Source of the DNA: Podarcis pityusensis
Taxonomy: Eukaryota
Strand: one strand, 5' to 3'
Length of the DNA stretch: 64,000 nucleotides
Assembly: GCA_964106645.2 (NCBI GenBank)
Contig: OZ067042.1
In this document: piece after piece, positions 52,001 through 53,525 of the stretch
Layout: each line of letters begins with the position of its first letter
Numbering within the stretch: the first letter of the stretch is position 1
Position numbers: made by a program

Positions 52001-53525
52001 CCTGTCAACCAACAATCCAAAATTGCTCACTGAAGGCTCTAACCCGGAGGTGGGCAGGAAGGAAGTTCTCATACCAAAATGACTGTGAGCTCCAGGGGAA
52101 GCAGCCTTATATAGTGGTACCTCAGGTTAAGTACTTAATTCGTTCTGGAGGTCCGTTCTTAACCTGAAACTGTTCTTAACCTGAAGCACCACTTAAGCTA
52201 ATGGGCCCTCCTGCTGCTGCTGCGCCGCGGCTGCACGATTTCTGTTCTCATCCTGAAGCAAAGTTCTTAACCTGAGGTACTATTTCTGGGTTAGCGGAGT
52301 CTGTAGCCTGAAGCGTATGTAACCTGAGGTACCACTGTATAGGCTTCCCTTCCCCTCTGCAACAAGGACAGCTTTTTCCTATGAGCGCATCACACAGAGA
52401 AGATACTAAGCAAAAATCTTGCCCAGCATTTTGCTGCAATCTATGGGCCCCTGTGCTGCCAGGCAAAGGCGTCCCATGCTTATTGGGTACGGAACAGGGC
52501 TTTTAGCATCAGCGGCGTAGCGTGGGTAGTCAGCACCCGGGGCAAGGCAAGTAATTTGCGCCCCCTAACCCGGGGCAAGGCAAGTAATTTGCGCCCCCTA
52601 ACCCCTAACCATGGTCATTAATACTGACGGCTCTACTCTGGGGCAAATTTCGTAGTGACTACTGCCCTCCGTGGTGTTGTTTTTGCAATTAAAGGACCCC
52701 TGCCTCAAATAAAGCATGGGGATTGGGCACTGGGATTTGCCAAGGGAGCTGGGAATTGCAGTTCAGTGGCGGGTCAGGGGGAGAGGGTCCCTTCCGCGTC
52801 TGGGTGCCGTGGGCCCCTTTGCGCCAAGACGCGCGTCTTTGGGCGTTGCGGCGCAGCCTTCTCGGTCTCCCTCCCCGGCCCGGCTAGCCCTGACGCGGCT
52901 TCTTTCTGGCGCGGGGAGGGGGCGCCTCTGGGGCCAGTGGGTTGGCCAGCCTCCGGCGCGGGTGGGCGGGCCCCGTCGGGGCGGGTGGGCGGCGTGGCGC
53001 TTGGTGCCGAAGCCTCCGCCCGCAGCACCCCATCGGGAGACCTGGCCGGAAGGAGCCTCGAGCCGGCTGTCGGACGCGGCTGAAGCAGCCAGGGCGGCAT
53101 GGCAGGCGGCGGCGGCTCCCCGGCAACTCCATGCGGCCAGCCCTGCGCGCTGGCCGAGCCCCGCAGGCGAACGCTGCCCGTCGGTGAGGAGGGGCTGCCT
53201 GGCGCGCCTTCCGCAGCGAGCGCTGAGAGCCGCTGCCATGGGGCTCTGGGCGATTCCGGAGGCAGCGAGCGCGCCCCCCCCAGAAGTTGCGCCCGGTGCG
53301 GCCGGCACCCCTGGCACCCCCCACGCTACGCCACTGTTTAGCATTGTGTTTTAAGTGCTATAGCCCAGCTTGCGATTTTAAATTGAAGGACAAGTAGTGA
53401 AACAACAGCAACAACTTTAACTTCCATTTAAGATACATTTGTATGTTTCTACCACAAAACTAGCTCTCTGCAGTAAGCAAACAGATGCTGACTTTTGATT
53501 GCAACATTTTTTGGTTTTGGCAACT

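What the first reader, a model, noticed from the sequence alone, without database searches (positions are those of the whole stretch)
52502..53344. Mobile CpG island: hAT ends around GC-rich, promoter-like cargo inside an AT-rich intron
Seen: 17-bp TIRs, a perfect 8-bp TSD, no transposase, and an interior of about 550 bp that is very GC- and CpG-rich against a CpG-poor background. It has GC-box-like GGGCGG motifs and a one-mismatch ZNF143/THAP11 motif (52748-52762). Undecayed CpGs imply recent insertion or protection from methylation. Inference: Pack-type capture of host CpG-island DNA by a non-autonomous hAT, well known in plants and much less so in amniotes. It could create an intragenic promoter or a methylation-sensitive element in SORCS1.
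Basis: partly seen in the sequence, partly recalled or inferred. Interest (0 to 1): 0.65.

Follow-up and report, generated by a model that had tools for sequence, protein, structure and literature searches.

The report
Young hAT transposon carrying CpG-island-like core
A recently inserted, transposase-less hAT-type jumping element sits in an intron of a lizard or snake SorCS1 gene and carries a CpG-island-like core that looks like the start of a gene, but where that core came from could not be tested here.

Summary
An 827-bp element (52510-53336) has 17-nt inverted ends (16/17) and a perfect 8-bp target duplication, TTTAGCAT. It has no transposase. Its 540-bp core has GC 0.77 and CpG o/e 0.85, against 0.41 and 0.22 for the window. 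It lies in a ~10-kb intron of SorCS1 (minus strand) in a squamate; the window is not human.

It is a young non-autonomous hAT element. No chance model produced this end structure (best of 40 simulated windows: 13/17).

Capture of host CpG-island DNA could not be tested, because no eukaryotic genome collection was open. Internal evidence is mixed.
- For: on the + strand the core reads as a one-mismatch THAP11/Ronin motif, GC boxes, an ETS-like site, a Kozak ATG, a 28-codon frame and the element's only GTRAG donor.
- Against: GC boxes match composition. The same motif sits in both arms of an unrelated hAT-like MITE in this window. The element's ends are themselves CpG-rich. No donor turned up in the window or in three protein searches.

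hAT-mediated capture is already published for animals, including vertebrates, and extraneous DNA in lizard hAT elements is documented. Verdict: new member of a known kind, modest interest.

The parts
52502..52509 (.). Left target-site duplication TTTAGCAT
   Evidence: Identical 8-mer at 53337-53344. Fits the hAT target pattern nTnnnnAn (pattern recalled, not from a call).
52510..52526 (+). Left terminal inverted repeat CAGCGGCGTAGCGTGGG
   Evidence: 16/17 complementary to 53320-53336 (I2). These are the only two matches in the window. The terminal CAGCG fits YARNG, given for hAT in PMC3014272.
52535..52600 (+). Perfect 33-bp tandem duplication in the left subterminal region; each unit holds AATTTGCGCCC
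   Evidence: D2, 100%; period 33, 2.1 copies, 100% matches. TTGCGCCC occurs 3 times in the window, all inside the element.
52610..52779 (+). Less GC-rich inner left segment (GC 0.51, CpG o/e 0.37)
   Evidence: It contains the Ronin/THAP11-like motif.
52749..52763 (+). One-mismatch Ronin/THAP11 (M4) motif CTGGGAATTGCAGTT
   Evidence: 3 matches in the window against 0.09 expected. The other 2 lie in the arms of a MITE at 19.5 kb. The motif is as printed in PMC10329844. The THAP11 site ACTACAATTCCCAG in PMC3627581 matches 13/14.
52780..53279 (+). CpG-island-like core, with GC boxes at 52964-53021 and an ETS-like CCGGAAG at 53046
   Evidence: Measured over 52780-53319: GC 0.765, CpG o/e 0.85, TpG and CpA o/e 1.15 and 1.09 against 1.31 in the background. 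GC skew on the + strand is positive from 52600 to 53100.
53099..53182 (+). Exon-1-like feature: ATG in GGCGGCATGG context, then 28 open codons (MAGGGGSPATPCGQPCALAEPRRRTLPV)
   Evidence: In a post-hoc shuffle test, a Kozak ATG plus open frame plus GGTRAG within 45-300 nt arose in 35 of 2000 shuffles of the core. No protein relative was found.
53183..53188 (+). Splice-donor-like G|GTGAG, the only GTRAG on either strand of the element
   Evidence: (GTGAG once, GTAAG, CTCAC and CTTAC zero).
53284..53294 (+). Right subterminal copy (AAGTTGCGCCC) of the left subterminal motif
   Evidence: 3 matches at 1 mismatch or fewer, all in the element. Expected 0.81; 4 of 100 shuffles had 3 or more, so this is only suggestive.
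53320..53336 (-). Right terminal inverted repeat (CAGTGGCGTAGCGTGGG on the minus strand)
   Evidence: The single TIR mismatch (C/T) is at a CpG.
53337..53344 (.). Right target-site duplication TTTAGCAT
58039..58179 (-). Upstream flanking SorCS1 exon (aligns to Pogona SorCS1 residues 754-800)
   Evidence: tblastn, 91.5% identity.
47852..47965 (-). Downstream flanking SorCS1 exon (aligns to residues 802-839)
   Evidence: tblastn, 97.4% identity.

Best explanation
Shown:
- An 827-bp non-autonomous hAT-superfamily transposon was cut and pasted into a ~10-kb intron of a squamate SorCS1 gene, duplicating the 8-bp target TTTAGCAT.
- It encodes no transposase, so a transposase made elsewhere must have moved it.
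- It is young. The TSD is 8/8, the TIRs 16/17, an internal 33-bp duplication is 33/33, and the core shows little TpG/CpA excess. Youth alone explains the undecayed CpGs.

Inferred:
- That transposase recognises the 17-nt ends, and probably the TTGCGCCC subterminal motifs.
- The GC-rich core was already inside the element when it landed. By base rates it probably travels with a multicopy 'orphan' non-autonomous family.
- The core most likely began as the 5' end of a host RNA polymerase II gene: CpG-island promoter, 5' UTR, a first coding exon of 28 codons, a splice donor and about 100-140 bp of intron.
- It would have been picked up by template switching or gap repair, as in Pack-TIR elements.
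- Its apparent transcription direction (+) is antisense to SorCS1 (-).
- At this site it is most likely neutral. If unmethylated, it could act as an antisense intragenic start site.

My odds: hAT insertion about 0.97; core aboard at the time of insertion about 0.85; ultimate host-gene origin about 0.45-0.5.
For: End structure: TIR and TSD. In 40 simulated windows none exceeded 13/17 with a perfect TSD, against 16/17 here. YARNG termini and 8-bp TSDs are the hAT hallmarks listed in PMC3014272.

No transposase: 0 of 11 ORFs in the element have a Pfam hit. 0 of 381 ORFs of 55 aa or more in the window have a transposase domain above cut-off.

Youth: the perfect 33-bp duplication and TpG/CpA o/e of 1.15/1.09 in the core against 1.31 in the flanks.

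Gene-start layout on one strand:
- Ronin/THAP11 motif 14/15 at 52749-52763. PMC10329844 says this motif sits just upstream of start sites, -81 bp on average.
- GGGCGG x4, and CCGGAAG at 53046.
- ATG in a -3R/+4G context at 53099, then 28 open codons ending at the element's only GTRAG.
- This combination arose in 35 of 2000 shuffles, in a test defined after the feature was seen.
- G>C and T>A skew on the + strand from 52600 to 53100.

Precedent: 208 hAT Pack-TIRs in animals, including a frog hAT-N8_XT that captured a 5' UTR and spread to three chromosomes (PMC8277862). Anolis has orphan hAT families and incorporation of extraneous DNA (PMC3014272).
Against: No donor locus was found:
- No second copy of any part of the element in the window, which covers 52 kb on one side and 10.7 kb on the other. 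Tan et al. find the parent within 15 kb for 56.9% of animal Pack-TIRs.
- No protein relative of the +213-aa frame: 0 hits among 8000 scored candidates.
- No relative of the 80-aa frame from the ATG: 0 of 295 candidates at E<=1.
- The -195-aa frame gave one hit (33% identity in 6 stretches, E 2.7e-7), which I judged low-complexity from those figures alone; I did not inspect its sequence or use it.
- 0 of 5 ATG-started ORFs are in the 15-billion-protein collection.

The promoter-like features are weaker than they look:
- GC boxes are what the composition predicts.
- 2 of the 3 Ronin-like motifs in the window sit in the two arms of a hAT-like MITE at 19451-19586. In this genome the motif is therefore also transposon-borne.
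- The motif-bearing stretch aligns weakly to that MITE: score 15 against 10.5 +/- 1.5 for shuffles, maximum 16 in 300.

GC richness may be native to the family. The ends are themselves GC- and CpG-rich: the left 100 bp has o/e 0.73 and the right 57 bp 0.79. Past about 21 nt the two ends share no symmetry, so no cargo boundary can be drawn.

hAT elements usually need 100-200 bp of subterminal sequence at each end (recalled). Part of the GC-rich right side may therefore be native.
Confidence: 0.5

Rival explanations
1. Native interior. The element is an internal-deletion derivative of an unusually GC-rich autonomous hAT. The 'CpG island' is the transposon's own promoter, 5' UTR and first short exon, and no host DNA is involved.
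For: The termini and subterminal regions are already GC- and CpG-rich (o/e 0.73 and 0.79). TTGCGCCC motifs lie 42-46 bp from both ends. Most Anolis non-autonomous hAT families are deleted versions of autonomous ones (PMC3014272). No host donor was found.
Against: No ORF in the element resembles a hAT transposase, BED finger or dimerisation domain (0 of 11). The 28-residue N-terminus matches nothing. 77% GC is far above what I recall for animal hAT elements (recalled, not tested). No autonomous partner lies in the window.
Confidence: 0.25
2. In-situ acquisition. An ordinary hAT-N inserted here first. The GC-rich block was then copied into it at this site by transposition-independent gap filling, which is the commonest route for single-copy animal Pack-TIRs. 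On this reading the CpG island was never mobile.
For: Tan et al. 2021 conclude that single-copy Pack-TIRs mostly arise this way (abstract and section 8).
Against: That route shows a cis bias, with 56.9% of parents within 15 kb and most of those within 5 kb. No parental copy exists within 52 kb on one side or 10.7 kb on the other. Everything about the element looks equally young. By that paper's figures the filled gaps are typically small relative to the TE (median 4.6% of TE size), whereas here about 65% of the element is the GC-rich block.
Confidence: 0.07
3. Not mobile at all. This would be a resident host CpG island (for example an alternative or antisense promoter in SorCS1) that has inverted and direct repeats at its edges by chance, or else an assembly or contamination artefact.
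For: The core meets CpG-island criteria and has promoter-like motifs.
Against: 16/17 inverted termini abutting a perfect 8-bp duplication never arose in 40 simulated windows, where the maximum was 13/17. The termini start CAG and end CTG, as in hAT. Three of the six frames found no significant relative in collections made mostly of prokaryotic proteins, apart from one hit I judged low-complexity and did not inspect. Rfam found no rRNA or other RNA. The window has no N.
Confidence: 0.02

Closest known systems
Pack-TIR / Pack-hAT elements of animals (Tan et al. 2021, PMC8277862), e.g. frog hAT-N8_XT carrying the CAPSL 5' UTR
   Same: A non-autonomous hAT shell with TIRs and an 8-bp TSD around non-transposase DNA that looks like a gene's 5' end. 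Some such elements are mobile and multicopy.
   Different: No parental host locus has been identified here, and having one is part of how those authors defined a Pack-TIR. Copy number is unknown. The cargo would be a whole CpG-island promoter plus first exon, rather than a 291-bp UTR piece.
'Orphan' non-autonomous hAT families of Anolis carolinensis (hAT-N4 to hAT-N8_AC; Novick et al. 2010, PMC3014272)
   Same: A squamate host, similar size (about 0.3-0.8 kb; hAT-N6_AC is 810 bp), very low divergence, 8-bp TSD, YARNG ends, and an interior unrelated to any transposase.
   Different: None of the TIRs shown to me from Table 1 equals CAGYGGCGTAGCGTGGG; the hAT-N6-8 TIR CAGAGSCGGYCC matches about 8/12, counted by eye. 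The table was cut in the passages I saw. The passages say nothing about GC- or CpG-rich interiors ('GC-rich' occurs 0 times).
Plant Pack-MULE and other Pack-TYPE elements
   Same: TIR transposons that pick up GC-rich 5' gene fragments and move them. The 5'/GC bias is recalled, not from a call; the reviews and papers appeared only in the search listing.
   Different: A different superfamily (Mutator, CACTA), 9-bp or 3-bp TSDs, a plant host, and cargo that is usually coding exons.
hAT-like palindromic MITE in the same window (19451-19586)
   Same: An 8-bp flanking duplication (7/8), a CAG start, and a one-mismatch Ronin/THAP11-type motif.
   Different: 136 bp long, almost all of it 57-nt arms. 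The terminal sequence is different (CAGGCATA...), it has no GC-rich core, and it is older (arms 93% complementary, TSD 7/8).

Membership tests
hAT superfamily (non-autonomous member) | 8-bp target-site duplication | tested here: met
   TTTAGCAT on both sides, 8/8. The joint TSD+TIR configuration was absent from 40 simulated windows.
hAT superfamily (non-autonomous member) | Short terminal inverted repeats with the terminal motif YARNG | tested here: met
   17-nt TIRs, 16/17. CAGCG and CAGTG fit YARNG as stated in PMC3014272.
hAT superfamily (non-autonomous member) | Target preference nTnnnnAn | tested here: met
   TTTAGCAT has T at position 2 and A at position 7. The consensus itself is recalled; Table 1 of PMC3014272 shows related patterns.
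hAT superfamily (non-autonomous member) | hAT transposase (BED finger, RNase-H-like core, hAT dimerisation domain), in cis or from a partner with the same TIRs | tested here: not met
   Nothing in cis: 0 of 11 element ORFs hit Pfam. Nothing in the window: 0 of 381 ORFs. This is expected for a non-autonomous copy. A partner elsewhere in the genome could not be looked for.
Pack-TIR (Pack-hAT) | Internal sequence with an identifiable parental (non-TE) host copy | not testable with these tools
   No eukaryotic genome collection was open. Partial tests were all negative: no parent in the 64-kb window, no protein relative of three frames apart from one likely low-complexity hit that I did not inspect, and no exact ORF in the collection.
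Pack-TIR (Pack-hAT) | The same TIRs and subterminal regions found around different or no cargo elsewhere | not testable with these tools
   The TIR occurs only at this element in the window. A 26-nt subterminal word had 0 exact matches in the bacterial/archaeal genome set, which says nothing about the host genome.
CpG island (sequence definition) | At least 500 bp, GC at least 55%, CpG o/e at least 0.65 (criteria recalled) | tested here: met
   52780-53319: 540 bp, GC 0.765, o/e 0.85.
Functional promoter / non-methylated island | Unmethylated CpGs and a mapped transcription start | not testable with these tools
   No methylation or transcript data. Motif evidence only: Ronin motif 14/15, and GC boxes at the level composition predicts.
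ZNF143 binding site (SBS1/SBS2) | The 18-bp core TTCCCA..ATGCA..GCG as printed in PMC3627581 | tested here: not met
   Only the ACTRCAATTCCCAG part (the THAP11 site) is present. The sequence that follows (CTCCCTTGG, read) lacks the ATGCA..GCG half (motifs).

The most novel reading that the evidence does not exclude
The element would be one copy of a currently active, multicopy squamate Pack-hAT family. That family would move a working, methylation-free CpG-island promoter, together with a first exon and splice donor, around the genome. It would act as a natural promoter/exon-trap cassette that seeds new antisense or chimeric transcripts inside genes such as SorCS1.
Probability: 0.1. Interest if true: 0.6.

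Novelty: new member of a known kind. Interest (0 to 1): 0.3.

Why it matters
If the core is a captured host promoter that stays unmethylated after transposition, this would be a clean natural case of a DNA transposon spreading ready-made CpG-island start sites in an amniote. It would allow a test of whether CpG-island identity is carried by the sequence itself at new genomic positions.

If the core is simply the constant interior of a young lizard hAT-N family, it is ordinary repeat annotation. The practical lesson would then be that CpG-island and promoter-motif scans in squamate genomes pick up young DNA transposons.

Tried and rejected
Searches for a donor or for further copies all came back empty or uninformative:
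- blastn of the element against the window gave only self-hits.
- blastn of the flanks found only an unrelated MITE family, so no paralogous empty site exists in the window.
- The search for homologous proteins with the +213-aa frame, near lengths: 0 hits among 8000 scored candidates.
- The search for homologous proteins with the 80-aa frame from ATG 53099, longer lengths: 0 of 295 candidates at E<=1.
- An exhaustive HMMER search with the -195-aa frame gave 1 hit (33% identity, 6 stretches). I judged it low-complexity from those figures; it comes from an unnamed source and I did not inspect or use it.
- Exact look-up of 5 ATG-started ORFs: 0 of 5 in the collection.
- An exact 26-nt subterminal word in bacterial/archaeal genomes: 0 matches.

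Other negative checks:
- Rfam at gathering threshold on the window and at E<=1 on the element: 0 matches each.
- tRNA scan of 50-56 kb: 0.
- The 12-nt TIR words in the paper library matched 6 papers. From their titles in the search listing I judged them unrelated; I opened none.
- A paper search for hAT, CpG-island and capture terms listed 12 of 147 papers, and none of the 12 titles describes a vertebrate hAT carrying a CpG island. A search on CpG islands in squamates gave nothing relevant among the 15 listed.

Rejected ideas:
- rDNA or snRNA cargo: no Rfam hit, though rDNA spacers are not in Rfam, so that origin stays open.
- A Pol III type-3 promoter: no RNA gene and no complete ZNF143 site.
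- Bacterial origin of the core: no significant protein relative in three of six frames, bar the one uninspected hit above.
- GC boxes as independent evidence: they match composition.

Structure prediction, complex prediction and the protein atlas were not used, because nothing here suggests a real protein.

Full report
**What is there.** The stretch 52502-53344 is an 827-bp element (52510-53336).
- It is flanked by a perfect 8-bp duplication, TTTAGCAT.
- It is bounded by 17-nt inverted repeats, CAGCGGCGTAGCGTGGG and CAGTGGCGTAGCGTGGG, matching 16/17.
- The one mismatch is a C/T difference at a CpG.
- The TIR pattern with up to 3 mismatches occurs twice in the 64-kb window, and both matches are these termini. 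0.05 was expected, and 1 of 100 shuffles had 2 or more.
- I scanned the real window and 40 Markov-simulated windows for a perfect 8-bp direct repeat directly abutting inverted 17-mers within 3 kb. The simulations never exceeded 13/17. The only other real case is 12/17, which is chance level at 31 cases in 40 windows.
- The left subterminal region holds a perfect 33-bp tandem duplication at 52535-52600.
- The window contains no N.

**Composition.**
- The core 52780-53319 has GC 0.765, 67 CpGs and CpG o/e 0.85.
- The window as a whole has GC 0.41 and o/e 0.22. The flanks have o/e 0.28-0.33.
- TpG and CpA o/e in the core are 1.15 and 1.09, against about 1.31 outside, so there is little sign of CpG decay.
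- The element is not uniform. The left 100 bp has GC 0.62 and o/e 0.73. Positions 52610-52779 have GC 0.51 and o/e 0.37. The right 57 bp has GC 0.75 and o/e 0.79.
- The ends themselves are therefore CpG-rich. Past about 21 nt the two ends share no symmetry. No cargo boundary can be drawn from this copy alone.

**Host and context.**
- Pfam found a Sortilin_C exon (59202-59378, minus strand, E 7e-7) and a PKD exon (40616-40891, minus strand, E 6e-7).
- The PKD-exon ORF is only distantly similar to the solved SorCS2 structures (roughly 45% identical, counted by eye from the alignment).
- Its best hits are SorCS1 of squamates: Pogona and Heteronotia at 90%; Sphaerodactylus, Salvator and Paroedura at 89%; snakes at 81-84%. 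The mammal hits I noted were about 74-82%. In all, 156 of 224 candidates passed E<=1e-5.
- A named lizard reference (Pogona SorCS1, P0004) aligned by tblastn to the window gives 15 exon matches covering residues 647-1283, all on the minus strand.
- The element lies in the ~10.1-kb intron between the exons at 58179-58039 and 47965-47852.
- The window is from a squamate, not a human. In addition, an Alu head motif finds nothing.
- I searched single exons and mapped exons one by one.

**Is it a hAT element?** The defining structural features are met:
- an 8-bp TSD;
- CAG...CTG termini fitting YARNG (PMC3014272, passages);
- a target with T at position 2 and A at position 7.

It is non-autonomous. 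0 of 11 ORFs of 55 aa or more overlapping it hit Pfam. 0 of 381 such ORFs in the whole window have a transposase domain above cut-off. The one sub-threshold hit, Transposase_28 at 47412-47639 (E 0.0014), is unrelated to hAT. A possible transposase-binding word, TTGCGCCC, occurs three times in the window, all in the element, 42-46 bp from each end. The longer form is only suggestive: 3 matches against 0.81 expected, and 4 of 100 shuffles reached 3.

The only open nucleotide collection holds bacterial and archaeal genomes. Copy number and donor locus therefore remain unchecked.

Points for capture, read on the + strand:
- A one-mismatch Ronin/THAP11 (M4) motif lies at 52749-52763. The motif and its strong preference for positions just upstream of start sites are stated in PMC10329844 (one passage).
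- Four GGGCGG boxes lie between 52964 and 53092, and an ETS-like CCGGAAG at 53046.
- An ATG in a -3R/+4G context lies at 53099. It is followed by 28 open codons that end exactly at the only GTRAG on either strand of the element.
- This ATG, frame and donor combination arose in 35 of 2000 shuffles of the core. I defined that test after seeing the feature, so it flatters the result.
- G>C and T>A skew on the + strand runs from 52600 to 53100. That is the sign expected downstream of a start site (recalled knowledge).

Points against capture:
- GC boxes are no more frequent than the composition predicts: 5 against 3.1 +/- 1.75.
- The 3' half of the ZNF143 site is missing (motifs from PMC3627581, passages).
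- 2 of the 3 Ronin-like motifs in the window sit in the two 57-nt arms of an unrelated hAT-like MITE at 19451-19586. In this genome the motif is therefore also carried by transposons.
- The motif-bearing stretch aligns weakly to that MITE: score 15 against shuffled 10.5 +/- 1.5, maximum 16 in 300.
- No donor was found. There is nothing else like the element in the window.
- Protein searches also gave no usable relative. The first two frames scored 0 hits among 8000 scored candidates and 0 of 295 candidates.
- The third frame gave one likely low-complexity hit that I left uninspected and unused. 0 of 5 exact ORFs are in the collection.

**How this sits with what is known.**
- Tan et al. 2021 (PMC8277862; abstract, passages and all of section 8) found 370 Pack-TIRs in 100 animal genomes, 208 of them hAT-associated.
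- They report that most single-copy cases arise by transposition-independent gap filling, with the parent within 15 kb in 56.9% of cases. The rare multicopy cases (three in frog, one in alligator) are truly mobile. One example is a hAT-N8_XT carrying a 5' UTR.
- The absence of a parent within 52 kb on one side and 10.7 kb on the other argues against the common in-situ route here.
- Novick et al. 2010 (PMC3014272; passages) describe 32 non-autonomous hAT families in Anolis. Many are under 2% divergent. Eight are 'orphans' with nothing in common with an autonomous element beyond the TIR, and they report frequent incorporation of extraneous DNA.
- None of the TIRs visible to me in their Table 1 matches this one.
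- By base rates, a young lizard hAT-N copy is far more likely to belong to a multicopy family than to be a private capture. The real question is where the family's core came from.

**Verdict.**
- Youth is enough to explain the intact CpGs.
- My best reading is that the core was aboard when the element inserted, and that it ultimately derives from the 5' end of a host gene (about 0.45-0.5).
- The main rival is that it is the native 5' region of a GC-rich autonomous hAT (about 0.25).
- The apparent promoter direction is antisense to SorCS1. Any promoter or methylation effect is untested.
- This is a new member of a known kind and of modest interest. It would become more interesting only if the family proves to spread a working, unmethylated promoter.

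Noticed in passing
window 19451-19586: A 136-bp palindromic MITE with 57-nt arms that are 93% complementary. It is flanked by GGCCAGAT / GACCAGAT (7/8), which looks like a hAT-type 8-bp TSD. Each arm carries a one-mismatch Ronin/THAP11 motif, ATGGGAATTGTAGTC, so this 'housekeeping promoter' motif is transposon-borne in this genome.
   Followed up: partly
window 52109-52347, 62305-62524, 5781-5983: A ~240-bp MITE family, TA-flanked, with CAGTGGTACCTCAGGTTA-type inverted ends (Tc1/mariner-like by eye). 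One copy lies 160 bp left of the hAT element. The two other copies are 75% and 71% identical to it.
   Followed up: partly
window 53527-53561: A (CCTG)n microsatellite of 8.8 perfect units, about 190 bp right of the element.
   Followed up: no
window 51500-51900: A second, weaker GC-rich patch (GC 0.61, CpG o/e 0.42). It holds an imperfect 24-bp tandem repeat at 51648-51697, and GATTCCAAGCA occurs at both 51604 and 51819. It may be an older repeat insertion.
   Followed up: no
window 1524-61581, minus strand: The window holds the 3' half of SorCS1. 15 exon matches to Pogona SorCS1 cover residues 647-1283 and reach the end of the protein.
   Followed up: yes
window 47412-47639, minus strand: A sub-threshold Pfam match to Transposase_28 ('putative gypsy type transposon'): E 0.0014, 19.2 bits against a cut-off of 26.2. 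Probably noise.
   Followed up: no
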